A stretch of DNA of 64,000 nucleotides, from assembly GCA_016196825.1 (NCBI GenBank), contig JACPWY010000055.1, positions 70 to 64,069 on the forward strand, written 5' to 3'. This DNA comes from Deltaproteobacteria bacterium. GTDB lineage: Bacteria > Bdellovibrionota > FAC87 > UBA2466. The notes under the pieces were generated by a model, which had not been told where the DNA came from, searched no databases, and worked only from the letters and a program-made list of their open reading frames with translations. Shown here in pieces: positions 42,040-62,530 of this stretch. Every line of letters starts with the position of its first letter. Position 1 is the first letter of the stretch. Position numbers and translations under genes: made by a program.

Positions 42040-42043
42040 GACC

Positions 42044-43426
42044 ATGAAAAAGACCCTCATCAAAAATGGCACGGTCGTGACAGCGACCGACACAGCCGCG
42101 GCCGACATTCTCATCGAAGGGGAAAAGATCGCGGCCATCGGACGCGACCTCTTCCATTCACCCGACACGACGGTCGACGCCACCGGTTGCTACGTCATCC
42201 CGGGCGGCATCGACGCCCACACTCACCTCGATCTCCCCTTCATGGGCACCTCCTCGAGCGACGATTTTGAGACAGGCACCCGCGCGGCCCTCTTTGGCGG
42301 CACGACCTCCATCATCGATTTCGCCTTCCAAACTCAAGGGCGCTCACTCAAAGAGGGGCTCGCCACCTGGCGCGAAAAGGCCGCAGGCCGTGCCATCGCC
42401 GATTATGGATTCCACATCGCCGTCACCGATTTCAATCCGACTGTCCATCAAGAGGTCCGCGACCTAATCGAAAAGGATGGCGTCACCTCCTTTAAGACCT
42501 TCATGGCCTATAAAGGCGCTCTCATGATTGACGATAAGCAGATGATCGGCCTCATGAATGAGGTCAAGAAGTGGGGTGGGCTCGTCACGGTCCACGCCGA
42601 AAATGGTGATCTCGCCGATTCGCTCATTCAGCAAAACTGTGAGGCCAAGAACCTCGCCCCGAAGTTCCACGCCCTTTCACGGCCCGAAATCGTTGAGTCC
42701 GAGGCCACGGGGCGCGCAATTGACATCGCCTACGCCGGAGGCCACCCGCTCTATGTCGTGCACATGACGTGCGAGGGGGCGCTCAACCGAGTGCGCGAGG
42801 CCACCAAGCGCAACCAGACGGTTCTCGTCGAGACCTGCGTGCAGTACCTCCTTCTCGATGATTCCGTCTACGAACGGCCCGGTTTCGAGGGGTCTAAATG
42901 GGTGATGAGCCCTCCGATTCGCAAACCAAAAGATCAGACAGCACTCTGGAACGGGATCGATCAAGGACTCGTCCACACAGTAGCCACCGATCACTGCCCC
43001 TTTTGCCTCGATCAAAAGGCAATGGGGAAGGATGACTTCTCCAAGATCCCCAACGGCGCCCCCGGCATCGAGCACCGGATGGAGCTCATGCACTCCGAGG
43101 GCGTCGTTAAGAACCGGATCACGCTCAACCGTTTCGTCGATCTCAATTGCACAGCGCCTGCGAAGATTTTTGGCCTCTACCCGAAAAAGGGGAGTCTCTC
43201 CGTCGGAAGCGACGCCGACATCGTCATTTTTGATCCCAAGGTGCAGCACACGATTTCCCAAAGCACCCACCACATGCGGTGCGATTACTCGGCCTACGAA
43301 GGCTGGAAGGTCCAGGGCAAGGTCCGCACCGTGTATTTGCGCGGCACCTGCGCCATCGACAAGGGGCAGGTCCTGATTGGCAAGGGCTTTGGACAATACC
43401 TGCCCCGCAAGAAGTTTAAGGAGTAG
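42044..43426 (+). CDS. hydA: dihydropyrimidinase / D-hydantoinase
   Basis: Cyclic amidohydrolase motifs PGGIDAHTHLDLPFMGT, SFKTFMAYKG (carboxylated Lys context), VHAENGD, ATDHCPF. Confidence 0.9.
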   Translation: MKKTLIKNGTVVTATDTAAADILIEGEKIAAIGRDLFHSPDTTVDATGCYVIPGGIDAHTHLDLPFMGTSSSDDFETGTRAALFGGTTSIIDFAFQTQGRSLKEGLATWREKAAGRAIADYGFHIAVTDFNPTVHQEVRDLIEKDGVTSFKTFMAYKGALMIDDKQMIGLMNEVKKWGGLVTVHAENGDLADSLIQQNCEAKNLAPKFHALSRPEIVESEATGRAIDIAYAGGHPLYVVHMTCEGALNRVREATKRNQTVLVETCVQYLLLDDSVYERPGFEGSKWVMSPPIRKPKDQTALWNGIDQGLVHTVATDHCPFCLDQKAMGKDDFSKIPNGAPGIEHRMELMHSEGVVKNRITLNRFVDLNCTAPAKIFGLYPKKGSLSVGSDADIVIFDPKVQHTISQSTHHMRCDYSAYEGWKVQGKVRTVYLRGTCAIDKGQVLIGKGFGQYLPRKKFKE

Positions 43427-43428
43427 AA

Positions 43429-44295
43429 ATGGCAAGACCCGTGAAAATTGGCCTCATCCAGATGGCAAGCAAATTGCCGACAAGCGCTTCGTGCGAAGAG
43501 CACAGAAAGGCTATGACCGAGGCGCATGTCACCTACATCGAAGAGGCGGCCAGAAAGGGCGTGAATATTCTCTGCATGCAGGAGATCTTCACCGGCCCCT
43601 ATTTCTGCCCCTCGCAGGAGACGAAATGGTACGGCCTCACCGAGAAGATCCCCGAAGGCCCCACGACCCAGCTCATGATGGAGCTCGCCAAGAAGCACAA
43701 GATGGTGATCGTGGTCCCGATCTATGAGGAGCACATGACCGGCGTTTACTACAACACGGCCGCCGTCATCGATGCTGATGGAAAGTATCTTGGTAAATAC
43801 AGAAAGAATCATATCCCGCAGGTGAAGGGCTTCTGGGAGAAGTTTTTCTTTAAGCCAGGCAACCTCGGCTACCCGGTTTTCAACACCGCCTTTGGCAAAG
43901 TCGGCGTCTACATCTGCTACGATCGGCATTTTCCTGATGGCGCGCGCTGCCTCGGGCTCAATGGCGCTGAAATCGTTTTCAATCCCTCCGCCACGGTGGC
44001 GGGCTTGTCGGAATACCTTTGGGAGATCGAGCAGCCGGCACATGCCGTTGCCAACGGTTACTTCATCGCCGCTATCAACCGCATCGGCCGCGAAGAGCCG
44101 TGGAACATCGGCGATTTCTACGGCCAAAGCTACGTGGCCAGTCCGCGGGGAAAAATTCTTAAGAAAGCCTCGCGCGACAAGGACGAGCTCCTCATCGCCG
44201 ACATCGATCTCGATGAGGTGAAGGAAATTCGAGACCTCTGGCAGTTTTATCGGGACAGGCGACCCGAGACCTATGGCGCCATCACGGAAATTTAA
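43429..44295 (+). CDS. beta-ureidopropionase (N-carbamoyl-beta-alanine amidohydrolase), nitrilase superfamily
   Basis: CN-hydrolase triad context: CMQEIF (Glu), YRKNHIP (Lys), VYICYDRHFP (Cys). It sits between dihydropyrimidinase and the transaminase. Confidence 0.85.
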   Translation: MARPVKIGLIQMASKLPTSASCEEHRKAMTEAHVTYIEEAARKGVNILCMQEIFTGPYFCPSQETKWYGLTEKIPEGPTTQLMMELAKKHKMVIVVPIYEEHMTGVYYNTAAVIDADGKYLGKYRKNHIPQVKGFWEKFFFKPGNLGYPVFNTAFGKVGVYICYDRHFPDGARCLGLNGAEIVFNPSATVAGLSEYLWEIEQPAHAVANGYFIAAINRIGREEPWNIGDFYGQSYVASPRGKILKKASRDKDELLIADIDLDEVKEIRDLWQFYRDRRPETYGAITEI

Positions 44296-44305
44296 GGGGA
44301 AAGAC

Positions 44306-45613
44306 ATGATGACCACGGACCAGATAGGTGAAATCAGAAAGAAGCATTTTCTGCACACGACGGTGCACTACTACAAAAAGCCCCTGCAGCTCGTAAAAGC
44401 GAAGAACCAGTATGTCTTCGACGAAACGGGGCGACAGTATTTGGATTGCGTCGGCGGCATCGTCTGCATCTCGGCGGGCCACAACCACCCTCGCATCAAG
44501 GCCCAGCTCAAGAAGATGCTCGACGAGGATGAGATCCAGCACACCTCAACGCTTTATTTTAATCCGCACGCGGCCGAGCTGGCGGCTCGTCTCATCGAAG
44601 AGGCCCCACCGGGAGTGGATCGCGCCTTTTTCACCAACTCCGGCAGCGAGGCCAATGAGCTCGCGTTTCTCGCCGCCCGTCAGGCCACAGGCGAGACGAT
44701 GATCGTGAACCTGCGCCACAGCTACCACGGCTGCACATCCGGCGCTCTTTCTTCTTGCGGCCACAACACGTGGCGATTCCGGAGCCAACCCGTGACGGCC
44801 GTCACCTCCGCGATGGAGCCGTATTGCTATCGGTGTCCATTTGGAAAAGCTCCAAGCTCATGTGAGTTGGAATGCGCGAAAAACGTCGAGACAACGATTC
44901 AGACCACGACCCACGGGAAAATAGCGGCGTTTATCGCCGAGCCCGTGATGGGCGTGGGCGGATTCATCACGCCTCCAGCTGACTACTTTCCCGAGGTCAC
45001 CAAGATCGTCCACAAGTATGGCGGCAAATACATTAGTGACGAAGTCCAGACAGGCGCCGGCCGGGCCGGGCAGACCGTGCTGCTCACCAAGGATCTTGAG
45101 ATCGATGCCGACATGGTGACGATGGCCAAGGGGCTTGGCAACGGCGCCCCCATCGGAGCCACCCTCATGAAGAGTGACATCGCTGAAGCGATGTCGGGCA
45201 AGATGATGTTCAATACCTTCGGCAGCGACCCCTACCAAGCCGCACAGGCCAAGCTCGTGCTCGACATCATCCACGATGAACACCTCATCGAGAACGCCCA
45301 GACCGTCGGAAAATACCTGATGGACAGCCTCAAGGGGCTCATGAAGACGCACCCGCTCATCGGCGATGTCCGAGGCCGCGGCCTCCTTCTGGGTGCCGAG
45401 CTGGTAAAAGATCGCACGACTAAGGAATACGCCACCGCCGAGACGTCCGAGCTGATGGAGCGTTGCCGGGACAAGGGGGTGCTCATCGGAAAGGGTGGCC
45501 TGTTCGGCAACGTCATCCGCTTTGCGCCCCCACTCACCTTCACCCGAGCCAACGCCGACGAGCTCCTGAAGGCTATAGACGAGGGACTCTTCGAAATCGA
45601 GAGGAAGCAATGA
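44306..45613 (+). CDS. class-III (AGXT2-like) aminotransferase, probable beta-alanine/beta-aminoisobutyrate:pyruvate transaminase
   Basis: Trimmed to ATG 44306 (AAGGGGAAAG upstream). YLDCVGGIVCISAGHNHPRI, FTNSGSEANE, ISDEVQTGAGRAG, and MVTMAKGLGNG (PLP Lys). Confidence 0.85.
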   Translation: MMTTDQIGEIRKKHFLHTTVHYYKKPLQLVKAKNQYVFDETGRQYLDCVGGIVCISAGHNHPRIKAQLKKMLDEDEIQHTSTLYFNPHAAELAARLIEEAPPGVDRAFFTNSGSEANELAFLAARQATGETMIVNLRHSYHGCTSGALSSCGHNTWRFRSQPVTAVTSAMEPYCYRCPFGKAPSSCELECAKNVETTIQTTTHGKIAAFIAEPVMGVGGFITPPADYFPEVTKIVHKYGGKYISDEVQTGAGRAGQTVLLTKDLEIDADMVTMAKGLGNGAPIGATLMKSDIAEAMSGKMMFNTFGSDPYQAAQAKLVLDIIHDEHLIENAQTVGKYLMDSLKGLMKTHPLIGDVRGRGLLLGAELVKDRTTKEYATAETSELMERCRDKGVLIGKGGLFGNVIRFAPPLTFTRANADELLKAIDEGLFEIERKQ

Positions 45614-46887
45614 GTCTCAAGACGGAATTCCTCGGCTTTGAACTCGAGAATCCGTGGTGCCTCGCCTCAGCTCCGCCGACTGCCACAGGAAAGCTCATGA
45701 GCGATGCTTTTGAAGTGGGCTGGGGAGCGGCCATTATGAAGACCGTGGGCCCGGTGGAAGAGCCCATCATTAACGTCGCTCCCCGCATCCACACCTATAA
45801 AAAGTGGAACCGTGAAATTGCGATGCAAAACATCGAGCTCATCACCGATCGCAAGCTCTCGGTCTGGCTCGAAGAGCTCAAAGTCCTTAAGAAGCGATAC
45901 CCCAAGAAGATGGTCATCGGCTCGATCATGGCCCCCGGCCATGAAATGGACGCCTGGGCCCGCCTCATCGAGGAGATGAACCGGGTCGGCTGCGACGCCA
46001 TCGAGCTCAACCTCGGCTGTCCCCACGGCATGCCCGAAAGAGACATGGGTGCTATCTGCTCCCAGGACCCTGAGATCGTCTACAACATCGTCTCCACCTG
46101 CAAGGGTGCAAGCAAGGTTCCCATCCTCACCAAGCTCACGCCGAACGTGACTAATATTAAAGTCATGGCCGCCGCCGCCAAACGCGGTGGCACCGATGCG
46201 ATCACGGTCATCAATACGGTGAACGGCATCATCGGCGTGGACGTCTACTCGCGAAAACCCCACCTTTCGGTGAACGGCTATACCGCTGTCGGCGGCATCT
46301 CAGGTAACGCCGTAAAGCCCATTGGCTTGAAATGCGTCGCCGAGTGCAAGCAGGCGACAGAGCTTCCGATCTCCGCCACCGGCGGCATCACCACATGGTC
46401 CGACGGAGTCGAATACCTCATCATGGGTGCAAGCCAACTCCAGCTCTGCACGGAGGTGATGATCCGCGGCTTTAAGATCATCTCTGGGCTCAATCAAGGC
46501 ATTGAAAAGTACATGACCGAGATGGGTTACACGTCGATAGATGAGGTCAAAGGGACGCTCTATAAAAATATCACGTCATTTGATTACCTTCTCAAACAAA
46601 GCCACTCCGAAAAGGTTCGCGTTAACGAAGAGACCTGCACCGGCTGCAACATCTGCGTCGTCGCCTGCCGCGACGCCGGCTACGACGCCCTCAAGCTGAA
46701 AGGCGTCCCCGCCCACGATCGCACCAAAGGAACTCGCAATGTGGCCGACGTCATCGTAGATCACTGCACGGGCTGCAACCTCTGCGTCGCCGTCTGCCCA
46801 GTGCCAGAATGCATGAGCCTCTACGACTCCCATGAACAATTCCCTTACGACCTCCACACCAGCTACGCACAGAATACGTTAACGTAA
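45610..46887 (+). CDS. preA: dihydropyrimidine dehydrogenase catalytic subunit (PreA-like: DHOD-type barrel plus 2x[4Fe-4S] ferredoxin domain)
   Basis: Trimmed to ATG 45610 (ATGA overlap with the transaminase stop). MSLKTEFLGFELENPWCLASAPP, IELNLGCPHGM. C-terminal CTGCNICVVACRD and CTGCNLCVAVCP clusters. Confidence 0.85.
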   Translation: MSLKTEFLGFELENPWCLASAPPTATGKLMSDAFEVGWGAAIMKTVGPVEEPIINVAPRIHTYKKWNREIAMQNIELITDRKLSVWLEELKVLKKRYPKKMVIGSIMAPGHEMDAWARLIEEMNRVGCDAIELNLGCPHGMPERDMGAICSQDPEIVYNIVSTCKGASKVPILTKLTPNVTNIKVMAAAAKRGGTDAITVINTVNGIIGVDVYSRKPHLSVNGYTAVGGISGNAVKPIGLKCVAECKQATELPISATGGITTWSDGVEYLIMGASQLQLCTEVMIRGFKIISGLNQGIEKYMTEMGYTSIDEVKGTLYKNITSFDYLLKQSHSEKVRVNEETCTGCNICVVACRDAGYDALKLKGVPAHDRTKGTRNVADVIVDHCTGCNLCVAVCPVPECMSLYDSHEQFPYDLHTSYAQNTLT

Positions 46888-46937
46888 GGGGCCAGTCGCC
46901 TTCCAATATTGAAAGGTGCCGGGTCCTAGAAATGACC

Positions 46938-47297
46938 TTAATAGGGAACGCGAATATCCGGCCATTTCCGGGAGAAGTCCTTCGTATTCCGAGTGACCAA
47001 CACATACCCGAGGCGCTCCGCAGTGGCTTTGATGATTGCGTCGGGAATTCTCATCTTAAACTTCCTACGAACTCGGACAGTTTCCTTCGCCATTTCACCA
47101 TCAATCGCGTGAGTCTTGAAACGGCTTAGAAACCCGGCAAGCTCGATCTCCTCACGACCACTTCGAGCCCCGACCAAAATTTCGATTTGTGTGATGATAC
47201 TAATGTGCAGTTCATCGTAGCGCTCAAACTCCTCCTTCGAACGCCGGTCGCCGTTCAGGTAGTCAATCAAGATATTGGTGTCAAAAACGGCGTTCAC
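46938..47297 (-). CDS. vapC: PIN-domain toxin VapC
   Basis: MNAVFDTNILIDYL...ISIITQIEILVGA...DAIIKATAERLGYVLVTRNTKDF shows canonical PIN acidic residues. 4-nt overlap with the upstream antitoxin. Confidence 0.85.
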   Translation of the reverse strand: MNAVFDTNILIDYLNGDRRSKEEFERYDELHISIITQIEILVGARSGREEIELAGFLSRFKTHAIDGEMAKETVRVRRKFKMRIPDAIIKATAERLGYVLVTRNTKDFSRKWPDIRVPY

Positions 47298-47521
47298 TTT
47301 TTTTCCCAGTCCTTCCTCAGTTTCTTTTCATAAGCCAGGGAGTCCACACCCCGTCCCTTCCACAAACCGAACGAGGCGTCCTTCGGCAAGCAATGGGGGG
47401 ACTCCGCGAGAAACAGGGTGATAGCCCTTCGAATGGCCTCAGCCCGCGAAATGGACTCTTTCGCGCAAATCTCAGCGAGCTGCTTGATTATCTTCTCCGG
47501 AATGTCGATGAGAGTCTTCAT
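47294..47521 (-). CDS. vapB: ribbon-helix-helix (CopG/VapB-type) antitoxin
   Basis: MKTLIDIPEKIIKQLAEICAKESISRAEAIRRAITLFL has an RHH pattern. Confidence 0.8.
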   Translation of the reverse strand: MKTLIDIPEKIIKQLAEICAKESISRAEAIRRAITLFLAESPHCLPKDASFGLWKGRGVDSLAYEKKLRKDWEKK

Positions 47522-47615
47522 TCATATAGTATATCTATATATAATATGCTTTTCAAGCTGGATGGAGTTTTCAGCAGTAGGCGTAATTGCCGAAATTGTC
47601 CTATAGAATAATCAC

Positions 47616-49055
<1,440 letters not shown>

Positions 49056-53577: not shown

Positions 53578-53742
53578 GTGCAATCAGCGCTTGCAAAAAA
53601 GTGTCGTCAGGATCTTATCGAACTGTGCAGAAAAATGTCGCCCGCCGAACGACTTGAGGCGTTTCTCAATCAGTCTAAGACCCTAGCGGAGATTGCCTTG
53701 CAGGGTGAGACCGATCGAAATCGGAAAGCGAACAAACGATGA
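53578..53742 (+). CDS. small ORF (54 aa from GTG 53578, or 35 aa from ATG 53635) coupled to the nucleotidyltransferase gene
   Basis: Not in the track (<60 aa). ..KKCRQDLIELCRKMSPAERLEAFLNQSKTLAEIALQGETDRNRKANKR. Its stop overlaps the next start (ATGA at 53739). No SD is visible. Confidence 0.3.
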   Translation: MQSALAKKCRQDLIELCRKMSPAERLEAFLNQSKTLAEIALQGETDRNRKANKR

Positions 53743-54302: not shown

Positions 54303-54326
54303 GGCCCCGTACTCACAGCACTAGAC

Positions 54327-54764
54327 TCACTCCCCGATATCCTCATTCCACAGCTCGGGGGAGCGCACTATAAATACGCGCATGAGCTCGATGCAGCGGG
54401 AGTCATCGACAATCGTCAGCTCCACGCCGCGGCTTTTCACATAGTCCTCCGGCCCCTGGAACGATCGGTTCTCACCGATCACGATGCGGGGGATCTTATA
54501 AAGCAGCGCCGTTCCGCTGCACATGTCACAGGGCGAAAGCGTCGAGTAAAGAACCGCGTGCTGATAGTCGCGCGCTTTCAAGCGGCCCGCGTTTTCAAGA
54601 CAATCCATCTCAGCGTGCAAAATCGAGCTTCCCTTTTGCACCCGGCGGTTGTGACCACGCCCCACAATCTTTCCGCCGAGGACCAGCACCGACCCAATAG
54701 GAATGCCGCCCTCTTTCAGACCCAGCTCCGCCTCTTCAATAGCCGCTTTCAAAAACTCGCTCAT
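54327..54764 (-). CDS. cytosine deaminase, yeast FCY1-type (CMP/dCMP zinc deaminase fold)
   Basis: GHNRRVQKGSSILHAEMDCLENAGRL...LYSTLSPCDMCSGTALLYKIPRIVIGEN aligns almost residue-for-residue with my memory of Fcy1 (GHNMRFQKGSATLHGEISTLENCGRL...LYTTLSPCDMCTGAIIMYGIPRCVVGEN). Confidence 0.85.
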   Translation of the reverse strand: MSEFLKAAIEEAELGLKEGGIPIGSVLVLGGKIVGRGHNRRVQKGSSILHAEMDCLENAGRLKARDYQHAVLYSTLSPCDMCSGTALLYKIPRIVIGENRSFQGPEDYVKSRGVELTIVDDSRCIELMRVFIVRSPELWNEDIGE

Positions 54765-55426
54765 ATCAACAGGTCCTCAAAGAAAGCTCCACACCCGGTC
54801 TTCGGATCGTAGAGCTGGATCTCCAGAATCCACCGCCCTTCGGTGGGGACAAAATCGATCTCCCAAAGTCCGTGGTTGAAGTACTGGCGATGAGAAAACT
54901 CCGACAGGCGGTGCCCATCCACATCGGTCTTGAGCTCAAAGCCCTCACCTCGCGCCTGACCACTCAGCCACTCGTAGAGCTGTCGTCCTTTGGGGCGCTC
55001 GGCCTTCCAATGGTCGCAACCTTTTCTGTAAAGAGACGCGGCGGTTCGCGCCAAATGGTCGAGGTCATCGCTCTTCCCGACGGTGAAGGTCTCGCCGATA
55101 TCCCCTTCATACTCGACGCCATCGATCACCCAATTCGGACCCAGGTCGAGAAAGAAGATGTCATCCTTTTGCAATATCGATCGCACCCTCTGGTTCTCGT
55201 TGAACTTATAGATCGTGTTCTTCCCGACCCGCACCACCGGCCGGTGCCACGCCCGTGGCGAGCCCATCCGCTGCATGTGACTGACAGCTATTTCAACGAT
55301 GGCAATCTCATCCATTCCCGGCCGCACCTCGGCCGCTATCTCATTCAATGCCCGGCGGGACAAATCCTGCGCCTTGATAAGGCCCGCCAATTGGAATACG
55401 TCCCCTGATCTCTCGAGAGGGTTCAC
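54761..55426 (-). CDS. M24-like (pita-bread fold) metallohydrolase, catalytic domain only
   Basis: IFFLDLGPNWVIDGVEYEGDIGETFTVG (D...D metal ligands), DGHRLSEF (His), LEIQL and FFEDLL (Glu ligands). 221 aa with no N-terminal creatinase/prolidase domain. 4-nt overlaps on both sides. Confidence 0.65.
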   Translation of the reverse strand: MNPLERSGDVFQLAGLIKAQDLSRRALNEIAAEVRPGMDEIAIVEIAVSHMQRMGSPRAWHRPVVRVGKNTIYKFNENQRVRSILQKDDIFFLDLGPNWVIDGVEYEGDIGETFTVGKSDDLDHLARTAASLYRKGCDHWKAERPKGRQLYEWLSGQARGEGFELKTDVDGHRLSEFSHRQYFNHGLWEIDFVPTEGRWILEIQLYDPKTGCGAFFEDLLI

Positions 55427-56772
55427 AACATCGCCTCCACCAGCTTCTTAGCCCGCGCAATGTCGACATCCTCAGCAATCTCGATCCCATCGCACAGCTC
55501 ATCCAGAATTTTTTGCTGAATGAGCCCCTTCTCATAGGCCTCCCGGTACGGCGTGCGCGTGAACGACACCAGCGTGTAGCGCGGCACATACCGGCTCGGA
55601 AAGGCCGCTTGGAGCAGACGCTCCACCTTTTTCTCGAGTTGAAATCTTGTATCGGCCACCTTGTCGCGCATCTCGATAAAGTTCTCGATCGCCATGTCGG
55701 CTATTGCATCGGCGTTGGATTTGCGGCGCGAATAGAAATCATCAAAGGCCGCATCCCAATCCTCTCCCCACTTCTCAAGACACTCATTGAGGACGGAACA
55801 ATCCTCAAATCCGCAGTTCATCCCCTGCCCAAAAAACGGCACGATCGCATGGGCCGCGTCTCCCAGCAGAAGCACGCGACCCTTCACAAACCAGGGCCCC
55901 GCCTTTACGGTCACCATCTTCCCGGTCGGGTGGCCAAAGAACTCTTCGGTCAGATTTGGAATGTGATCCAAAGCATCCACGAACTGACTCTCAAAGAAAC
56001 TCTCAACGGCTGCCTTATCATTCAGCGCCGCGAAGCTCCTCTCCCCCTCAAAGGGCAAAAAGAGCGTGCAGGTGAAGCTCCCCTCTTCATTGGGAAGCGC
56101 AATGAGCATGTCCTTCCCGCGCGGCCAGATGTGAAGCGCGTTCTTTTCGATCGCAAACCCGCCCCCCGGAAGTGCTGGCATGACGACCTCTTTATAACCG
56201 TGGCTCAAATGCGATTCGCTCGTGTCGACTCCCATCGAGTCGCGCATCGCATGCCGAATCACCGACGCCGAGCCATCCGTGCCGAGAATCCGTTCATACG
56301 TCGCCTCTCGCCTTTTCCCGTCCCGCTCGCTCATGATCTGAAGAGTATTGGTCTCAAAATCGATTCCGGTCACCGTGGAATAAAATTGAAACCGCACGCG
56401 CCCCGTCTTTTCCGCCCCCGTCATCAACATCTTATTGAGCCCATTACGCGAAACGGAATTGATGCACTGGCCACTCGCTCCGTAAGGTTGAAACTGGTTC
56501 CGGCCGTCGAGCATGTGGACCATCCGCCCTGGCATCTGGATAATGTGCGGCAAAACTTCGTCTTTGAGCCCAATTTCTTCGAGCGCGTGAAGACCACGCA
56601 CCGAAATCGCCAAGTTGATTGAACGCCCTTCGCCCACCGACTCCCGACGCATGTCTCCGCGCCGCTCAAACACATCGCTCTGAAATCCCCTCCGCGCCAA
56701 GTAGGTTGCCAGCACCGACCCCACAAGGCCCCCGCCCACAATCGCAATAGGCGCTGTCACAGGTGTCGCCAT
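55423..56772 (-). CDS. kmo: kynurenine 3-monooxygenase (FAD-dependent)
   Basis: Rossmann IAIVGGGLVGSVLATYLARRGF..DVFERR, GRSINLAISVRGLHALEEIGL, LLGDAAHAIVPFFGQGMNCGFEDC. Start is ATG 56772 (alternative ATG 56793). Confidence 0.85.
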   Translation of the reverse strand: MATPVTAPIAIVGGGLVGSVLATYLARRGFQSDVFERRGDMRRESVGEGRSINLAISVRGLHALEEIGLKDEVLPHIIQMPGRMVHMLDGRNQFQPYGASGQCINSVSRNGLNKMLMTGAEKTGRVRFQFYSTVTGIDFETNTLQIMSERDGKRREATYERILGTDGSASVIRHAMRDSMGVDTSESHLSHGYKEVVMPALPGGGFAIEKNALHIWPRGKDMLIALPNEEGSFTCTLFLPFEGERSFAALNDKAAVESFFESQFVDALDHIPNLTEEFFGHPTGKMVTVKAGPWFVKGRVLLLGDAAHAIVPFFGQGMNCGFEDCSVLNECLEKWGEDWDAAFDDFYSRRKSNADAIADMAIENFIEMRDKVADTRFQLEKKVERLLQAAFPSRYVPRYTLVSFTRTPYREAYEKGLIQQKILDELCDGIEIAEDVDIARAKKLVEAML

Positions 56773-57974
56773 AGCTCCTCCGAAAAGTGCCATACATCTT
56801 CATAAGAATTGTAAAATGGCACCGGCGCCACCCGAATCACATCCGGGAAGCGGAAATCAGCGATAATCCCTTGCGCCTTCATGGCCCTCACGACCGCCTC
56901 AGCGCTCTTGTGGCGAAAAGACAACTGAGAACCCCGGCGGGCTGATTCGCGCGGCGTGAGAAGCTCGGCCTCAGGATTCAGGAATTCCATAAACGCCGTG
57001 AGGCGCTCGCTCTTCTTACGGATCTCACCCATCCCTGCTTCATCAAAGAGCGAAAGCGACGCCCTTAGCGCTGCGGCCTGAAAAATAGGCGGATTGGAAA
57101 CCTGCCAACGCTCGACCGTGGGAATGGGCTTGAAACCATCCGTCATAAGAAATCGGCTCTTTTTGTCATGGCCCCACCAACCCGCACACTGCGGAACATC
57201 CGCCGCATGATGCTTCTCATGAACAAAGCAGCCCGCAATCGCGCCTGGGCCTGCGTTGAGGTATTTGTACGAGCACCAAACCGCAAAATCGATCTCCCAA
57301 TCATGGAGATTCAAAGAAAGATTTCCGATCCCATGCGCTAGATCGACTCCAAAAACCACACCCGCCTTCTGAGTCGCCCGAGCCACGGCCTCGAGGTCAA
57401 ACGCCCGGCCCGTGATGTAGTTCGGCTGGCCCAAAATCACGAGAGCGATCTTTTCGCCGTTCTCCTCGATAAACCGAATGATCTCGGAATCGCTCTCGGT
57501 TTTAAGCCGCACCACCGCCTTCGCAAATCCATGAAACTCAGCCTGGGACTGCACCGCATAACGATCCGATGAAAACGCGCCATCCTCGATCACAATCCAA
57601 TGGCGATCGGTCGTGGGCCTATAGAATGACACCATCATCAAATGAAGATTCACCGTGAGCGAATTCATCGCTACGACTTCACTCGGTCGCGCCCCCGTGA
57701 GCCGGCAGAGCGGCTCCGTCAAAAACTCATGGTACGGCAGCCAGGGGAATTTCCCTTTGAGGTGCCCCTCGACGCCGAGTGTCCGCCACTGCTCGAGTTC
57801 CGCTTCAAGATACCGCTTCGTCTCGATGGGCTCCAAACCCAAGGAGTTGCCGGTCAGGTAGACCGTGTCCCTTCCCTGGTGTTGCGGCGTAAAAAACTTC
57901 GCGCGGAAACGCGCCAGGGGATCCTGCCGATCCAGCTCCTGGGCACACGCCAGGCTCTTTTCAAAAGGCTTCAT
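56757..57974 (-). CDS. kynU: kynureninase
   Basis: VYLTGNSLGL, DLAHGIGNLSLNLHDWEIDFAVWCSYKYLNAGPG (PLP Lys context), PDVIRVAPVPFYNSYEDV. ATGA overlap with the ACMSD stop. Confidence 0.9.
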   Translation of the reverse strand: MKPFEKSLACAQELDRQDPLARFRAKFFTPQHQGRDTVYLTGNSLGLEPIETKRYLEAELEQWRTLGVEGHLKGKFPWLPYHEFLTEPLCRLTGARPSEVVAMNSLTVNLHLMMVSFYRPTTDRHWIVIEDGAFSSDRYAVQSQAEFHGFAKAVVRLKTESDSEIIRFIEENGEKIALVILGQPNYITGRAFDLEAVARATQKAGVVFGVDLAHGIGNLSLNLHDWEIDFAVWCSYKYLNAGPGAIAGCFVHEKHHAADVPQCAGWWGHDKKSRFLMTDGFKPIPTVERWQVSNPPIFQAAALRASLSLFDEAGMGEIRKKSERLTAFMEFLNPEAELLTPRESARRGSQLSFRHKSAEAVVRAMKAQGIIADFRFPDVIRVAPVPFYNSYEDVWHFSEELWRHL

Positions 57975-58969
57975 GGCAGCCCCAGCCAGACACGAGCATT
58001 GCCGGCGAGCATTCCGGTCTTCTCTACCTCAGACAGATCGGACATCGACTGGATCATTTCACCCGGGCGAAGTTCACCCAGCGGAAACGGGTAGTCGGAC
58101 CCCAACAAAATCTTGTCGGCGCCAAAGACCTTCAGGCAATGGCGAAGAAGATCCGGAGCGTGGACTATCGAATCCACGAAAAAATGGCCCAAATATTTCT
58201 TGGGGTTCACGGGATTCTGCGTGGCTACAAGATCCGGTCTCGCGCTAAAGCCGTGTTCCATCCGACCATACACACTCGCAAAGCTCCCGCCCCCATGCGC
58301 GAAAGCCACCCGCAGCTTGGGGAATTTTTCAAACACACCGCCAAAGATGAAATGGGCGATGGCGAGCGCTGTTTCCGTCGGCATCCCGATGAGCCATGGC
58401 AACCAATACCGATCCATCCGCTCTTTCCCCAACATCTCCCAAGGGTGAACAAAGAGCGCCGCCCCCAGACGCTCAGCCTCCGCGTAAAAGGGAAATAACG
58501 ACGCATCATCGAGGCTACGACCATTGAAGTGGGTCCCGATCTGCACACCACTGAGTTTGAGATCCTTCACAACCCTTTGGAGCTCCAGCGTCGCCAGCTC
58601 GGCGTCCTGCAAAGGCACCGTCGCCAACCCCAAAAACCTCTTCGGGTGCTGGGCCACGACACCTGCCAGGTGATCGTTCAAGAAGCGCGCCACCTCGAGC
58701 GTGTCTCTTCCTTTGGCCCAATAGTTAAACATCACCGGAACCGTCGATAAAACTTGGGTGGCCACACCCTGAGCATCGCACTCTTCAACGCGACGTTTCG
58801 GATCCCAGCAGTTGTCCCCGACCTCGCGAAAGAATCGCCCGTCGTCATACACCATACGCGCGTTACACCCGGCCTTATGCTGCACCTCGATGAACCCTCC
58901 GTATCCAAAGCGCTCCGCAAAACGCGGCACCCTTTTGGGAAGGATGTGGGTGTGGACGTCGATCTTCAC
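57971..58969 (-). CDS. nbaD: 2-amino-3-carboxymuconate-6-semialdehyde decarboxylase (ACMSD, amidohydrolase_2)
   Basis: Start moved to GTG 58969 (GTGA overlap with the HAAO stop; GGAGAAGG upstream), giving (M)[11 protein letters not shown] as in known ACMSDs. Also ..VHPWEM.., ..FAHGGGSF.., [12 protein letters not shown]. Confidence 0.85.
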
Positions 58970-59481
58970 GCGGCCTTCTCCACCTTCGTTCCACACTGGG
59001 GACAGGTGCATTTCGCGGGATCGGAATAGAACCGGTCAAACACTGGCGGGAGCTGCGAGACGATGTTGGTGAGCCTGAAAAATTCATCGTAGAGGCGGGT
59101 ATTACAATTGGGGCAGTACCAGACAAAACCATCGAGTTCATGGGGCAGGCGTTTGCGCTCAACGACAAGCCCGACGGTGTTGGCCGGCCGCTGGGGGGAA
59201 TGCGGCACCTTTCGCGGCAGGAGATAGATCTCCCCCTGGCGAATGGGAATCTCGTAGGGCTTGCCCTCTTTCATGATTCGCAACGTGATGTCACCCTCGA
59301 TCTGATAAAAAAACTCCTCACCCTCATTCACATGGTAATCGGTTCGTCGGTTCGGCCCGCCCACCACCATAATGATGAACTCTCTGTCCTCCCACACCTG
59401 CTGATTGCCGACGGGCGGCTTGAGAAGGTGCCGGTGCTCATCGATCCACTTCTGAAAATTAATGGCCTGAAAAAACTCCAT
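58966..59481 (-). CDS. nbaC: 3-hydroxyanthranilate 3,4-dioxygenase
   Basis: Trimmed to ATG 59481. [53 protein letters not shown] (cupin with His/Glu ligands). C-terminal CPNC...CPQC rubredoxin-like site. Confidence 0.9.
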
Positions 59482-59485
59482 CACG

Positions 59486-59914
59486 TCACTCCAAAGTCGC
59501 AATGCATTTCAGCTCGATCGCAATCGGCGTCGGGAGGCTTGTGATCCCGAGAGTGGTGCGGCACGGCTGGTGGGTTTTGAAATATTCACTATAGATCTTG
59601 TTATAGATCGGAAAATCGTCGCGCATGTTGGTGAGGTAGACCGTCACATCCACCAATCTGTCCCAACCGCTTCCGGCCTCCTCGAGAATCACCTTCACAT
59701 TGTGAAAGACCGAGTGACACTGCTGGGCGATGTCGTAGCTCGTAATCTTACCGTCAGGGCCAAGTGTCACGCCCGGAATCTCCTTTTTGCCTCGTTCGCG
59801 CGGCCCCACGCCCGACAGAAACAACAGGTTTCCCACCCGGCGCGCGTGCGGGTAGGCCCCCACCGGTTCCGGGGCTCGACTCGATCTCACCTCATCGGAC
59901 TTGAATGCAGACAT
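59486..59914 (-). CDS. RidA/YjgF-family deaminase (probable 2-aminomuconate deaminase)
   Basis: [25 protein letters not shown]...[10 protein letters not shown]...[21 protein letters not shown] is the RidA fold. Position matches nbaF-type genes. Confidence 0.75.
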
Positions 59915-61376
59915 TTTTCGACTCCGTAAAGAATCTCATCGCCTCAAAACCACCCTCGCGCCCCAGTCCCGACTGTTTCACGCCGCCAAAAGGGGTGCGT
60001 AGGTCGCGCACCATCCAGCAGTTGCCCCACACCATCCCCACTTCAAGCCCCTGGCCAAATCGGTGGAGACGACCTGCGTCGGCGGTCCACACGCTCGCGG
60101 CAAGGCCATACACCGATTGGTTTGCAAGCCCCAACGCCTCGTTCTCCGTGTCAAAAGGAACCAGGGTGACGACAGGGCCAAAGATCTCCTCTTGGTTCGT
60201 ACGACAATCATTTTTCAAACCGGTAATGACGGTCGGCTCGATAAACCACCCCTTCGCGCAACGCCCCCGAGCGGCGAATCGCTGGCCCCCACAAAGAATT
60301 TTTCCGCCCTCTTTCCGAGCGAATTCCAGGTAGCCCATCACCTTCTTGAAATGGGTCTCCGAGACCACAGCGCCCTGGTCGGTGGCTTCGTCGTCGGGAT
60401 CTCCAACGCGCAATCGCTGAACGCGCTCGACAAAACCTTGCGTGAATTTGTCAAAGAGCGACCGCTCAACAAGGATGCGCGATCCACAGAGACAGATCTG
60501 CCCCTGGTTGGAGAAGCCGGCCCGCACACACTCGCTCAACGTCCGATCAAAATCACAGTCGGCAAAAACAATTGTCGCATTCTTGCCCCCCATCTCAAGC
60601 GACACCTTCTTGAAATCCTTCGCGACCGCTTCACTGATAGCTCGCCCGGTCGCCGTGCTGCCGGTGAAGGTTACTGCCTTAACGTCGGGGTGAGTCACAA
60701 GCGGAGATCCCACTCGAGGTCCGCTGCCGTGAACGATGTTGAGAACGCCCGCAGGAAACCCCATTTCACTCGCGAGTTTTCCCAGAAGTCCCGCGGTCAA
60801 TGGCGTTATTTCCGAGGGCTTTGCGACCACGCAATTCCCGGCAGCCAAAGCCGGCGCGATCTTCCAAGTGAACAGATAAAGCGGCAGGTTCCACGGAGAG
60901 ATCGCCCCCACTACCCCCAAAGGCTTTCTCAGCGTGTAATGGATCGCATCCCCCGAGGCGTGGCTTTCCGACGCAAACTGGGTTGCCACGTCAGCGAAGA
61001 ATTCGAAATTGAGAATGCTCCGGGGGATGTCCACCGACCGCGCCACTGAGCGGGGCTTGCCCGTGTTTTGGCTTTCCGCTTCTGCCATGAGCTCGAGGTT
61101 ATCACTGATTGAGGTCGCCAGGCGCCGGAGCCATCGGCCCCGTTCCTGTGCGGAGAGTGCACTCCAGAAGGGGAATGCATGCCGCGCGGCCTCTATCGCA
61201 TTCGCCACGTCGGCCGCGCCGGAATCGGGCGCGTTCCCCAAAACCGCCCCCGCGGCCGGCTCAAAAAACGGGAGCGTCCCACCCTCGGTCGCGGGCACGA
61301 GCTTGCCATCGATAAGATTCAAAACTGACTGCACGCGACTAGTTTTGTCGGGGGAGGCACGAAGTGCAAGGGACAA
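59892..61376 (-). CDS. nbaE: 2-aminomuconate-6-semialdehyde dehydrogenase (ALDH superfamily)
   Basis: ISPWNLPLYLFTWKIAPALAAGN, LEMGGKNA, GFSNQGQICLCGSR (catalytic Cys), EEIFGPV. Pathway context supports the call. Confidence 0.85.
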   Translation of the reverse strand: MSLALRASPDKTSRVQSVLNLIDGKLVPATEGGTLPFFEPAAGAVLGNAPDSGAADVANAIEAARHAFPFWSALSAQERGRWLRRLATSISDNLELMAEAESQNTGKPRSVARSVDIPRSILNFEFFADVATQFASESHASGDAIHYTLRKPLGVVGAISPWNLPLYLFTWKIAPALAAGNCVVAKPSEITPLTAGLLGKLASEMGFPAGVLNIVHGSGPRVGSPLVTHPDVKAVTFTGSTATGRAISEAVAKDFKKVSLEMGGKNATIVFADCDFDRTLSECVRAGFSNQGQICLCGSRILVERSLFDKFTQGFVERVQRLRVGDPDDEATDQGAVVSETHFKKVMGYLEFARKEGGKILCGGQRFAARGRCAKGWFIEPTVITGLKNDCRTNQEEIFGPVVTLVPFDTENEALGLANQSVYGLAASVWTADAGRLHRFGQGLEVGMVWGNCWMVRDLRTPFGGVKQSGLGREGGFEAMRFFTESKNVCIQVR

Positions 61377-61411
61377 GTTGTGACTGAAAGCTCAGACGGT
61401 TAGGGGCTGCC

Positions 61412-62530
61412 TCAGGGAAACTCCATGGCCCACCAGGTCTGGAAGAGTGTGCAGGGGGCGCCGCCGCCACAGACATTGCCGCCGCCGTGGCTGTTGCCGC
61501 CGTTACCCTTGATGACAAGCAGATTATTGGTGGCCGAGCCACCCTGGTTCTTGGCGGGAAGACTTAAGTGGTCATAGTACATCGATTCGTAATCGTTGAA
61601 GGTGCTGTGACACGTCAAACAGCTTCCGATGCCGTTCTTCACCGTATTGTTGAAATAGTTCGTCCCCGCTGTCGTCGGCGAGTAGAGGAGATAATTGTAC
61701 GGACTCTTCGACAGAACTGAGGCCGTGCCGCCGCTTAAGCTCGGCGCGTCTGTGAAAAGGGTGTGGTTAGTCCCGTTGCGATACGCGGCTGGAATCTGGA
61801 AATTGAAGCCGTGATTACCGGAAAAGCCCGACGGCGGCGTCGCCAGATTCGCGGTCGTCGATCCGATGAGCGTCCCGGTCCCTTTGGGCCCATCGATATA
61901 GAAATTGATCACAACCGGTGAGGTCTGGGCCCCGATGTCGACCGCCCACCCCAGCACCTGGCCCCGGTTAGTCATGAGGGTGATTTGGCCGATAGGAGAC
62001 GAGCTCGTCACACCACCGCGTGAAGCCACCTCTTTCGCCCACCAGATCTTCACCTCGAAGCATGGCGAGTTGTTGCTACTCCCTGAACAGACGTCTCCGC
62101 CGGTGTGGGCAATCTGATTTCGCATTCGGCTCATCAGGGAATTTGTATCGGGGCTCGATCCGTTGAGAAGCTGGGCCACCATCTTGTCATAAGAATAGAT
62201 CGTCAGACCGCCCGAACCGCCAAAGCGCGGGTCGTTGTGACAGCTCGTGCATTGCGCCTGAAACGAAAGAGCCACCGTGTTGGCGAAATAGGAGGAGGGA
62301 GAATTCGGATCGCCCCCAATAGCCCCACCGCCCCCTGACCCATTTCCGGACCCAGAACCAGTGGACCCATTGCCCCCAGCCGCACTCCCCAGCTGCGAGG
62401 GAAACCGAAACCCGCAGCCCGAAAGGGCCACCAGGACGCAAATGGCCAGGATAGCAGTAACTTGAGAGTACTTCGTGTGAGTGGGCACGCCCCTAATAAG
62501 TGCAATCCCCAGGCCCAAACGCCCACGCAC
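61412..62530 (-). CDS. lipoprotein with two CxxCH motifs (PSCyt-like putative c-type heme sites) flanking an Ig-like middle domain
   Basis: Lipobox AICVLVALSGC, a Gly/Ser linker, FQAQCTSCHNDPRFGGSGGLTIYS and IGSCLTCHSTFNDYE. Only 35 nt separate it from the downstream kynurenine-pathway genes. Confidence 0.6.
   Translation of the reverse strand: MRGRLGLGIALIRGVPTHTKYSQVTAILAICVLVALSGCGFRFPSQLGSAAGGNGSTGSGSGNGSGGGGAIGGDPNSPSSYFANTVALSFQAQCTSCHNDPRFGGSGGLTIYSYDKMVAQLLNGSSPDTNSLMSRMRNQIAHTGGDVCSGSSNNSPCFEVKIWWAKEVASRGGVTSSSPIGQITLMTNRGQVLGWAVDIGAQTSPVVINFYIDGPKGTGTLIGSTTANLATPPSGFSGNHGFNFQIPAAYRNGTNHTLFTDAPSLSGGTASVLSKSPYNYLLYSPTTAGTNYFNNTVKNGIGSCLTCHSTFNDYESMYYDHLSLPAKNQGGSATNNLLVIKGNGGNSHGGGNVCGGGAPCTLFQTWWAMEFP

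What the first reader, a model, noticed from the sequence alone, without database searches (positions are those of the whole stretch)
54327..61376. Eukaryote-type kynurenine to 2-aminomuconate operon lacking TDO and formamidase but translationally coupled to an M24-like hydrolase and an FCY1-type cytosine deaminase
Seen in sequence:
- Eight minus-strand genes have 4-nt ATGA/GTGA overlaps or gaps of a few nt.
- In order they are the ALDH (2-aminomuconate semialdehyde dehydrogenase-like), RidA-type deaminase, 3-hydroxyanthranilate dioxygenase, ACMSD, kynureninase, kynurenine 3-monooxygenase, a 221-aa pita-bread (M24) catalytic domain, and a yeast-type cytosine deaminase.
- No tryptophan 2,3-dioxygenase or kynurenine formamidase gene is present in the cluster.
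Established knowledge: the KMO/kynureninase/HAAO route and the ACMSD branch are known in a minority of bacteria (work by Kurnasov et al. and by Colabroy and Begley). Formamidase has several non-orthologous forms.
Inference: the two coupled hydrolases have no assigned role in this pathway. They are candidates for a missing step such as N-formylkynurenine hydrolysis or an additional deamination. Alternatively they link aromatic amino-acid and nucleobase salvage.
Basis: partly seen in the sequence, partly recalled or inferred. Interest (0 to 1): 0.55.

Follow-up and report, generated by a model that had tools for sequence, protein, structure and literature searches.

The report
Kynurenine-breakdown operon with two extra hydrolases
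A predatory-type bacterium packs six known genes for breaking down kynurenine (a tryptophan product) next to an ordinary cytosine deaminase, which belongs with a nearby pyrimidine cluster, and an uncharacterised metal hydrolase that might replace the missing formamidase.

Summary
Eight tightly packed minus-strand genes at 54327-61376 encode AMSDH-like ALDH, RidA-type deaminase, HAAO, ACMSD, kynureninase, KMO, a 221-aa M24 protein and an FCY1-type cytosine deaminase. No TDO or formamidase was detected in the 64-kb window.

The core six genes are a known kind of pathway (kynurenine to 2-aminomuconate). The source is a MAG labelled Deltaproteobacteria whose closest relative with this operon is a Pseudobdellovibrionaceae MAG.

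The deaminase needs no new role. It keeps every yeast FCY1 active-site residue. It is about 83% identical to orthologues that sit tail-to-tail with a cytosine permease and reductive pyrimidine-catabolism genes. That same cluster lies at 40591-49040 in this window, in the same relative orientation.

The M24 protein is unresolved. The fold is confident and the catalytic residues are kept. It follows KMO in all three genomes of this clade. A more distant Bdellovibrionota operon carries canonical KynB and no M24, which fits a replacement. Against this, the family has more than 500 GTDB loci and none of the other 77 examined touches tryptophan genes. Sister genes sit beside rsgA or proBA.

Estimates: passenger about 0.5, analogous formamidase about 0.25-0.3. 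Interest is modest.

The parts
59892..61376 (-). 2-aminomuconate-6-semialdehyde dehydrogenase-like ALDH. The start is probably GTG 61334 rather than TTG 61376.
   Evidence: PF00171, E 1e-166. The top PDB hits are all AMSDH: 4u3w 5e-139 and 4i1w 7e-134. Candidate starts are listed.
59486..59914 (-). RidA-family protein, probable 2-aminomuconate deaminase. Its ATG overlaps the ALDH stop by 23 nt.
   Evidence: PF01042. PDB 6izh, 2-aminomuconate deaminase, E 5.5e-20, sits among generic RidA hits. The gene keeps the same position between ALDH and HAAO in L002 and L104.
58966..59502 (-). 3-hydroxyanthranilate 3,4-dioxygenase. The likely start is ATG 59481.
   Evidence: TIGR03037, 266 bits, above the cut-off. 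PF06052. PDB 1yfu, E 8e-54.
57971..59011 (-). ACMS decarboxylase (ACMSD). The likely start is GTG 58969, which makes a GTGA overlap with the HAAO stop.
   Evidence: Human ACMSD E 3e-128; Pseudomonas ACMSD 1e-72. The alignments start at residue 15.
56757..57974 (-). Kynureninase of the 3-hydroxykynurenine (human-like) type. ATGA overlap with ACMSD.
   Evidence: TIGR01814, 385 bits, above the cut-off. Human KYNU E 4e-95 against P. fluorescens 8e-52.
55423..56793 (-). Kynurenine 3-monooxygenase. The start is ATG 56772 or GTG 56760.
   Evidence: PDB KMOs of several organisms, including P. fluorescens, E about 1e-96; the next non-KMO hit is at 4e-11. Homologues are named KMO by their sources.
54761..55426 (-). 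Short (221 aa) M24 'pita-bread' metallohydrolase consisting of the catalytic domain only. Substrate unknown. GTGA overlap with the KMO stop.
54327..54764 (-). FCY1-type cytosine deaminase. ATGA overlap with the M24 stop.
   Evidence: Yeast FCY1 E 1e-45, with I33, N51, H62, E64, C91, C94, F114, W152 and D155 all conserved in the printed alignment. 83% identical to orthologues beside a cytosine permease and pyd genes.
40591..49040 (+). Reductive pyrimidine-catabolism cluster: semialdehyde DH, dihydropyrimidinase, beta-ureidopropionase, aminotransferase, dihydropyrimidine DH, cytosine/purine permease. This is the likely functional partner of the deaminase, not of the kynurenine genes.
   Evidence: Pfam domains. 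67-84% identity and the same gene order as L094, where the deaminase lies tail-to-tail directly after the permease.
61412..62530 (-). Conserved upstream neighbour: a 372-aa predicted lipoprotein with two CxxCH motifs. It ends 35-77 nt before ALDH. Whether it belongs to the transcription unit is unknown.
   Evidence: No significant Pfam hit. A 48%-identical orthologue sits at the same position upstream of ALDH in L002.

Best explanation
The locus is a six-gene catabolic operon of a known kind. The steps are:
1. KMO converts L-kynurenine to 3-hydroxykynurenine.
2. Kynureninase gives 3-hydroxyanthranilate plus alanine.
3. HAAO gives ACMS.
4. ACMSD gives 2-aminomuconate semialdehyde.
5. The ALDH gives 2-aminomuconate.
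6. The RidA-type deaminase gives 4-oxalocrotonate (2-oxohex-3-enedioate).

The operon sits in a MAG labelled Deltaproteobacteria. Its nearest operon relative is a Pseudobdellovibrionaceae MAG, so I infer a Bdellovibrionota affiliation. The conversion of tryptophan to kynurenine is encoded elsewhere or not at all.

The two 3'-terminal genes are co-directional and probably co-transcribed, but they are most likely passengers rather than pathway steps.
- The last gene is a genuine cytosine deaminase. It belongs functionally with the cytosine permease and reductive pyrimidine-catabolism cluster 5.3 kb away.
- The M24 gene encodes an apparently active binuclear-metal amidohydrolase. It belongs to a widespread, uncharacterised short-M24 family that sits in varied small-nitrogen-compound and housekeeping contexts.

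Shown: gene identities, packing, synteny and conservation of the catalytic residues. Inferred: co-transcription, substrates, and the passenger status of the M24 gene.
For: **Core enzymes** are identified by curated models and solved homologues. The same order recurs in L002 and L104.

**Deaminase:**
- All FCY1 catalytic and substrate residues are kept.
- The orthologue group is very large and highly conserved.
- 83%-identical orthologues abut Transp_cyt_pur plus pyd genes.
- The identical cluster is in this window, in the same tail-to-tail orientation.
- A PF04020 membrane-protein gene separates M24 from the deaminase in L001 and L002. The ATGA overlap seen here is therefore specific to this lineage.

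**M24:**
- 523 GTDB loci were found.
- Only the three loci of this clade have kynurenine genes within 10 kb, and none has TDO or KynB.
- Sister genes in Bdellovibrionota lie beside rsgA, beside proB/proA/yajQ/yqeY, or beside unrelated genes.
- Elsewhere the neighbours are amino-acid permeases, MocR regulators, ferredoxin reductases, arginase-family and amidase genes.
- A 64%-identical KMO contig has a downstream ORF of at least 200 aa that did not appear among the M24 hits.
Against: - M24 follows KMO in all three diverged members of the clade. M24 identity is 56-59% and KYNU identity 54-58%. Two of the three have a 4-nt stop/start overlap.
- The only related operon that carries KynB lacks M24.
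- The kynurenine-linked clade has its own substitutions next to the catalytic histidines. P178 is S here and P in all 84 other sequences. G185 is H here. There is also an insertion between the two Asp ligands. This fits a changed substrate.
- No transcript data exist.
Confidence: 0.5

Rival explanations
1. Non-orthologous displacement. The kynurenine-linked M24 clade is an arylformamidase that hydrolyses N-formylkynurenine to kynurenine plus formate with a metal-activated water. It replaces the KynB cyclase-family enzyme in this lineage, and TDO is encoded elsewhere.
For: - L104, a Bdellovibrionota MAG, has KynB (TIGR03035 E 1e-60) followed by the same six genes. It has no M24 and no TDO within 10 kb.
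- The window, L001 and L002 have M24 and no KynB in the sequence available.
- In this phylum's operon the formamidase, but not TDO, therefore travels with the pathway.
- The metal ligands and both catalytic His residues are intact.
- There are clade-specific changes beside the active site.
- The stop/start overlap with KMO is conserved in two of three genomes.
- kynA was reported in 14/14 predatory bacteria, and obligate predators lacked every other pathway gene (PMC4646340).
- From general knowledge: M24 enzymes hydrolyse acyl-arylamides such as Met-pNA and Met-AMC, so the leaving-group chemistry is familiar.
Against: - The complementarity rests on one operon against three, and all three come from one shallow clade.
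- KynB sits at the 5' end of its operon and M24 at the 3' end, so this is not a positional replacement.
- No other member of the more than 500-locus family lies near kynA, kynB or kynU.
- To my knowledge, no M24 enzyme is known to take a formyl group. The family normally anchors a free alpha-amino group on the metal site.
- The adjacent deaminase shows that tight packing here does not imply shared function.
Confidence: 0.27
2. M24 is linked to the pathway but acts upstream of it. It would be a small dipeptidase or amidase that releases kynurenine or tryptophan from prey-derived dipeptides or N-acylated forms and so feeds KMO.
For: - The fold is equidistant from MetAP, aminopeptidase P and prolidase.
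- Invariant R66 and R173 could bind a substrate carboxylate, as in dipeptidases and creatinase. This is inferred.
- The family often neighbours amino-acid permeases and ABC amino-acid transporters.
- The organism is of a predatory lineage and carries secreted subtilases in the same window.
Against: - No evidence on specificity.
- No transporter in this operon.
- No such kynurenine conjugate is known to me as a bacterial nutrient.
Confidence: 0.13
3. The deaminase has a second, pathway-related deamination role, or M24 and the deaminase together link aromatic amino-acid and nucleobase salvage.
For: - The deaminase is present downstream of M24 in all three clade members: 75% identity in L001 and 84% in L002.
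- ATGA overlap with M24 in the window.
Against: - The deaminase is a mainstream orthologue. It is 80-85% identical across phyla, which leaves little room for a new specificity.
- All cytosine-contacting residues are kept.
- Its conserved partners are a cytosine permease and pyd genes.
- The pathway's only deamination already has a dedicated RidA-type enzyme in the operon (bioRxiv 10.64898/2026.06.05.730449).
- Other genes are inserted between M24 and the deaminase in relatives.
Confidence: 0.04

Closest known systems
Bacterial tryptophan/kynurenine-to-2-aminomuconate catabolic cluster. Known from Burkholderia cenocepacia and Cupriavidus metallidurans (Colabroy & Begley 2005) and from the bacterial KMO/KYNU/HAAO route (Kurnasov et al. 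2003). Both are recalled from my own knowledge; the B. cenocepacia cluster and its AMD are cited in bioRxiv 10.64898/2026.06.05.730449.
   Same: The same six enzymatic steps from kynurenine to the product of 2-aminomuconate deamination, including a RidA-family 2-aminomuconate deaminase.
   Different: - No TDO, no KynB and no meta-cleavage lower pathway (4-oxalocrotonate decarboxylase, hydratase, aldolase) in the cluster or the window.
- Kynureninase and ACMSD are closer to the human enzymes than to the Pseudomonas ones.
- An M24 hydrolase and a cytosine deaminase are appended.
- The host appears to be a Bdellovibrionota-type organism.
L104 operon, Bdellovibrionota MAG GCA_040754655.1
   Same: The same six genes in the same order, at 55-74% identity.
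   Different: It starts with a KynB-type arylformamidase and ends with an SDR and an MFS transporter. A dmpH-like decarboxylase is transcribed divergently. It has no M24 and no cytosine deaminase.
Saccharomyces cerevisiae FCY1 cytosine deaminase (PDB 1uaq, 1p6o)
   Same: The same length class, the same zinc ligands, catalytic Glu and cytosine-contacting residues, and the same C-terminal ...EDIGE.
   Different: It is bacterial. It is a member of a very large bacterial orthologue group associated with cytosine permease and reductive pyrimidine degradation.
M24 metallopeptidases (MetAP, aminopeptidase P, prolidase), and the non-peptidase M24 members creatinase, ectoine hydrolase DoeA and DMSP lyase DddP
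   Different: - Only 12-21% identity.
- No N-terminal domain.
- Far below the MetAP and APP family cut-offs: TIGR00500 scores 25 bits against 171.
- From general knowledge, creatinase has lost the metal ligands, whereas this family keeps them.
- Substrate unknown.
KynB arylformamidase (cyclase family, TIGR03035), and eukaryotic AFMID/BNA7 (alpha/beta hydrolase)
   Same: If the rival hypothesis is right, the same reaction. From general knowledge, KynB also uses a binuclear metal centre.
   Different: No sequence or fold relationship to M24. Neither type was detected in the window.

Membership tests
Kynurenine to 2-aminomuconate catabolic pathway (bacterial, Colabroy-Begley type) | KMO present | tested here: met
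   PDB KMOs E 1e-96; the next family is at 4e-11.
Kynurenine to 2-aminomuconate catabolic pathway (bacterial, Colabroy-Begley type) | Kynureninase and HAAO present | tested here: met
   TIGR01814 and TIGR03037 both score above their curated cut-offs.
Kynurenine to 2-aminomuconate catabolic pathway (bacterial, Colabroy-Begley type) | ACMSD and AMSDH present | tested here: met
   ACMSD E 3e-128. AMSDH E 5e-139, with all top hits AMSDH. NCBIfam has no AMSDH-specific model, and the nearest model (TIGR03216) scores below its cut-off.
Kynurenine to 2-aminomuconate catabolic pathway (bacterial, Colabroy-Begley type) | Dedicated 2-aminomuconate deaminase | tested here: inconclusive
   A RidA-family protein sits in a conserved operon position. 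The match to AMD 6izh (5.5e-20) is no better than the matches to generic RidA proteins.
Kynurenine to 2-aminomuconate catabolic pathway (bacterial, Colabroy-Begley type) | TDO and kynurenine formamidase in the cluster | tested here: not met
   No hit in the 64-kb window to two KynA and two KynB queries at E<=1. No such Pfam domains in the scanned ORFs. The rest of the genome could not be searched.
FCY1-type cytosine deaminase | CDA-fold zinc site (H, C, C), catalytic Glu, and cytosine-binding Asn51, Asp155, Trp152, Phe114 and Ile33 | tested here: met
   All are conserved in the printed alignment to 1uaq and 1ysb, E 1e-45.
FCY1-type cytosine deaminase | Genomic association with cytosine uptake and pyrimidine catabolism | tested here: met
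   Orthologues at 83% identity abut Transp_cyt_pur and pyd genes. The same cluster lies at 40591-49040 in the window.
FCY1-type cytosine deaminase | Cytosine deamination activity | not testable with these tools
   Needs an enzyme assay or codA complementation.
M24 metallopeptidase clan (pita-bread) | Pita-bread fold | tested here: met
M24 metallopeptidase clan (pita-bread) | Five metal ligands (D, D, H, E, E) | tested here: met
   D94, D109 and H172 (plus H179) align with MetAP residues. E202 and E217 are at least 95% conserved in 87 sequences and lie on the last two strands. Their ligand role is inferred by motif, not by alignment.
Methionine aminopeptidase / aminopeptidase P / prolidase (specific M24 subfamilies) | Score above the curated family cut-off | tested here: not met
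   TIGR00500 scores 25 bits against 171. TIGR00501 scores 17 against 223. PRK10879 scores 16 against 465.
Kynurenine formamidase (KynB cyclase type or AFMID type) | Homology of the M24 protein to either known formamidase family | tested here: not met
   The only Pfam or NCBIfam matches are M24 models. Any formamidase role would be analogous, not homologous.
Kynurenine formamidase (KynB cyclase type or AFMID type) | N-formylkynurenine hydrolysis | not testable with these tools
   Needs an enzyme assay.

The most novel reading that the evidence does not exclude
The kynurenine-linked clade of short M24 hydrolases, marked by S178, H185 and an insertion between the Asp ligands, is a new, non-homologous type of kynurenine formamidase that displaced KynB in a Bdellovibrionota lineage. 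By extension, short M24 enzymes might partner the 'orphan' TDO that was reported in all predatory bacteria examined without the rest of the pathway.
Probability: 0.25. Interest if true: 0.6.

Novelty: new variant of a known kind. Interest (0 to 1): 0.33.

Why it matters
The core pathway is textbook, so its presence adds little on its own. It does suggest that some Bdellovibrionota-type lineages carry the kynurenine pathway downstream of TDO. Earlier comparative work on 14 predator genomes found only an orphan TDO in obligate predators (PMC4646340).

The useful outcome is a sharpened, testable question. Is the KMO-adjacent short M24 hydrolase an analogous arylformamidase? A yes would add another non-orthologous form of a step already known for non-orthologous replacement. 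It would also give a first function to one clade of a family of more than 500 species-level loci that currently carry only generic annotation.

The deaminase result is a caution. Overlapping stop and start codons in a compact genome do not by themselves indicate a shared pathway.

Tried and rejected
- **Word-index homologue search for M24.** It suggested a rare family with 18 hits. The GTDB pattern scan showed 523 loci, so rarity was an artefact of sensitivity.
- **Metagenome scan with KMO.** It returned a single locus, L093, with the order KYNU-KMO-TDO-binding protein. This shows TDO can follow KMO but says nothing about M24.
- **Context look-up of the 64%-identical KMO, P0142.** Gene positions were returned but no DNA. 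The ORF downstream of KMO could not be identified. I only note that it is absent from the M24 hit list.
- **Promoter and terminator scan of 53600-62800.** Promoter-like sites were at chance level. Terminator-like sites were about twice the shuffled mean but lay mostly inside genes. None marks the operon ends.
- **Foldseek against AFDB50.** The library was unavailable.
- **Conserved-neighbour analysis of about 86 M24 loci.** No neighbour occurs in more than about 13% of loci, so no family-level function could be derived. There is only a loose association with transport and catabolism of small nitrogen compounds.
- **Annotated plasmid and chromid homologues.** They carry only the generic name 'M24 family metallopeptidase'.
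- **Creatinase plus creatinine-deaminase pairing.** Considered because some sources label the deaminase 'creatinine deaminase'. Rejected because the M24 protein keeps all metal ligands, unlike creatinase, and because the deaminase's conserved partners are pyrimidine genes.
- **Eukaryotic origin of the deaminase.** Rejected on the size and conservation of the bacterial orthologue group.


Full report
**Observation**

Family and structure searches give each an identity.

| Gene | Window coordinates | Main evidence |
|---|---|---|
| ALDH (AMSDH-like) | 59892-61376 | All top solved homologues are 2-aminomuconate-6-semialdehyde dehydrogenases, E 5e-139 |
| RidA-family protein | 59486-59914 | Hit list includes 2-aminomuconate deaminase 6izh |
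| HAAO | 58966-59502 | Above the NCBIfam equivalog cut-off |
| ACMSD | 57971-59011 | E 3e-128 to the human enzyme |
| Kynureninase | 56757-57974 | Above the equivalog cut-off |
| KMO | 55423-56793 | E 1e-96 to solved KMOs; next family at 4e-11 |
| M24 protein, 221 aa | 54761-55426 | PF00557 |
| Deaminase, 145 aa | 54327-54764 | E 1e-45 to yeast FCY1 |

I reconstructed the junctions by listing candidate starts and their upstream sequences.
- ATGA overlaps occur at ACMSD/KYNU and at M24/CD.
- A GTGA overlap occurs at KMO/M24.
- A GTGA overlap occurs at HAAO/ACMSD if ACMSD starts at GTG 58969. The alignments to human ACMSD begin there.
- KYNU/KMO has either a GTGA overlap or a 16-nt overlap.
- RidA/HAAO has a gap of 1-4 nt.
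- ALDH/RidA overlap by 23 nt.

No TDO or KynB-type cyclase is detectable anywhere in the 64-kb window by tblastn with two KynA and two KynB queries at E<=1. Pfam scans of the other window ORFs show no TDO, IDO, cyclase or alpha/beta-hydrolase formamidase.

**Source and relatives**

The M24 and KMO proteins are recorded from a MAG labelled Deltaproteobacteria, on a contig of 64,088 bases. The closest relative with the same operon is an uncultured Pseudobdellovibrionaceae MAG (L002 = L013). After the three operon members and a 64%-identical KMO on a short ENA contig, the nearest KMOs belong to myxobacteria and to a Bdellovibrionota MAG. The lineage therefore appears to be of the predatory Bdellovibrionota type.

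Kynureninase and ACMSD are clearly closer to the human enzymes than to the Pseudomonas ones. This fits a route in which KMO acts before kynureninase. HAAO is of the bacterial Cupriavidus type. 'Eukaryote-type' is thus only partly apt.

**The core pathway is a known kind**

The six steps from kynurenine to the product of 2-aminomuconate deamination match the bacterial tryptophan-catabolic cluster described for Burkholderia and Cupriavidus. I recall that cluster from my own knowledge (Colabroy and Begley 2005; Kurnasov et al. 2003). A 2026 preprint restates that the B. cenocepacia cluster contains a dedicated RidA-family 2-aminomuconate deaminase. At the sequence level the RidA protein here is no closer to the solved deaminase than to generic RidA proteins. 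Its assignment therefore rests on its conserved operon position.

**The deaminase**

Three independent lines show that it is an ordinary cytosine deaminase.
- The printed alignment to yeast FCY1 conserves Ile33, Asn51, His62, Glu64, Cys91, Cys94, Phe114, Trp152 and Asp155, and the C-terminal EDIGE.
- It belongs to a very large bacterial orthologue group. At least 8000 proteins score below 1e-20, and more than 100 clusters are 80-85% identical across Planctomycetota, Chloroflexota and Proteobacteria-labelled MAGs. Conservation this strong leaves little room for a lineage-specific new substrate.
- Orthologues at 83% identity lie tail-to-tail with a cytosine/purine permease. Dihydropyrimidine dehydrogenase, an aminotransferase, beta-ureidopropionase, dihydropyrimidinase and a semialdehyde dehydrogenase follow.

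The same six genes, in the same order and at 67-84% identity, occupy 40591-49040 on the plus strand of this window. The deaminase lies 5.3 kb beyond the permease in the same tail-to-tail orientation. It is therefore best read as the outlying member of the pyrimidine-catabolism neighbourhood.

In L001 and L002 a PF04020 membrane-protein gene lies between M24 and the deaminase, and L002 has an additional 118-aa ORF there. The ATGA overlap in the window is a local feature, not an ancient coupling.

**The M24 protein: what is shown**

- The AlphaFold model is confident, with pLDDT 91.5.
- It scores far below the curated cut-offs of the named subfamilies.
- A profile of 16 family members aligns D94, D109, H172 and H179 with the two Asp ligands, the His ligand and the second catalytic His of MetAP.
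- E202 and E217, on the last two strands, are at least 95% conserved in 87 sequences. So are W60, H61, R66, R173 and W199.
- It therefore looks like an active binuclear-metal hydrolase made of the catalytic domain only.

**The M24 protein: arguments for a pathway role**

- It directly follows KMO in the window, in L001 and in L002. The 4-nt overlap is conserved in the window and L001.
- The three proteins form one clade.
- They share substitutions next to the catalytic residues that the other 84 sequences lack. P178 is S here and P in all the others. G185 is H here. There is also an insertion between D94 and D109.
- A more distant Bdellovibrionota operon (L104) has the same six genes in the same order, at 55-74% identity. 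It begins with a KynB-type arylformamidase (TIGR03035, E 1e-60, just under the cut-off). It carries no M24, no deaminase and no TDO within 10 kb.
- In this phylum's version of the operon, the formamidase travels with the pathway and TDO does not. In the M24-bearing version, M24 is the only hydrolase with no assigned role.
- Published comparative genomics found kynA in 14/14 predatory bacteria. An unlinked TDO is therefore plausible for this genome.

**The M24 protein: arguments against a pathway role**

- The family is large, with 523 confirmed loci in GTDB species representatives.
- Among the 80 best loci plus the metagenomic ones, only the three clade members have any kynurenine gene within 10 kb. 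None has TDO or KynB.
- The sister genes within Bdellovibrionota sit directly after rsgA, after proB-proA-yajQ-yqeY, or beside unrelated genes.
- Elsewhere the commonest neighbours are amino-acid permeases, MocR regulators, ferredoxin reductases, TonB receptors, arginase-family proteins, amidases and glutamine amidotransferases.
- The complementarity with KynB is one operon against three, and those three come from one shallow clade. KynB and M24 also sit at opposite ends of the operon.
- A contig with a 64%-identical KMO has a downstream overlapping ORF of at least 200 residues that is not among the M24 hits.
- The neighbouring deaminase shows that overlap and conserved adjacency in these compact genomes do not prove shared function.

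**Weighing**

| Reading of the two 3' genes | Estimated probability |
|---|---|
| Both are passengers, with M24 a general small-substrate amidohydrolase | about 0.5 |
| M24 is an analogous arylformamidase | about 0.27 |
| M24 feeds the pathway from peptide or acyl conjugates | about 0.13 |
| The deaminase has any pathway role | about 0.04 |

The locus is a new variant of a known kind of operon. Its interest lies almost entirely in the M24 question. That question can be tested with a simple spectrophotometric assay and a genome-wide KynB/M24 exclusion analysis.

**Limits**

- The rest of the MAG could not be searched for kynA or kynB.
- There are no expression data.
- The coordinates of the structure model were not available for inspecting the substrate pocket.

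Noticed in passing
window 40591-49040 (+): Complete reductive pyrimidine-catabolism cluster: semialdehyde DH, dihydropyrimidinase, beta-ureidopropionase, aminotransferase, dihydropyrimidine DH with Fe-S domains, and a cytosine/purine permease. It is 67-84% identical and collinear with L094-L099, where the cytosine deaminase is directly adjacent.
   Followed up: yes
window 27931-39474 (+): Giant 3847-aa ORF built from many HYDIN/VesB-like, ASH and Cep192-like Ig domains (PF22544, 12 stretches, E 9e-146). It is probably a huge surface or adhesin-type protein. A small PilZ-domain ORF precedes it at 27421-27885.
   Followed up: no
window 61412-62530 (-): 372-aa predicted lipoprotein with a Gly/Ser-rich linker and two CxxCH motifs, and no significant Pfam match. 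It ends 35-77 nt upstream of the ALDH gene. A 48%-identical orthologue occupies the same position in L002, so it may be a ninth conserved member of the block.
   Followed up: partly
L104 3886-13384: Variant of the same operon in a Bdellovibrionota MAG: KynB-type arylformamidase, then the six core genes, then an SDR and an MFS transporter. A dmpH-like 4-oxalocrotonate-decarboxylase-family gene is transcribed divergently. No TDO within 10 kb.
   Followed up: yes
L093 1-4523: Metagenomic contig with KYNU, KMO (55% identity), TDO and a periplasmic binding protein. Here TDO occupies the position directly downstream of KMO.
   Followed up: partly
L001 4740-5165; L002 10137-10918: A PF04020 (4-TMS 'Phage_holin_4_2') membrane-protein gene lies between M24 and the cytosine deaminase in both relatives. 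L002 has an extra 118-aa ORF with no Pfam match. Both are absent from the window.
   Followed up: partly
window 2014-8623 (+): Two tandem secreted subtilases (Peptidase_S8) are followed by a 1219-aa ORF with no Pfam match. This fits a proteolytic, predatory lifestyle.
   Followed up: no
window 62726-63646 (-): 306-aa protein with a C-terminal HNH endonuclease domain, just upstream of the lipoprotein gene in a lower-GC stretch (GC 0.507 in 62001-64000). It may be a mobile-element remnant.
   Followed up: no
window 57971-59011 and 56757-57974: ACMSD and kynureninase are much closer to the human enzymes (E 3e-128 and 4e-95) than to the Pseudomonas fluorescens enzymes (1e-72 and 8e-52). HAAO is closest to the bacterial Cupriavidus type.
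   Followed up: partly
L006, L016, L018, L024, L035, L060, L081: In other Bdellovibrionota the short M24 gene sits immediately after rsgA, or after proB-proA-yajQ-yqeY, with gaps of 1-20 nt. These are housekeeping contexts, different from the catabolic contexts seen in Proteobacteria and Actinomycetota.
   Followed up: partly
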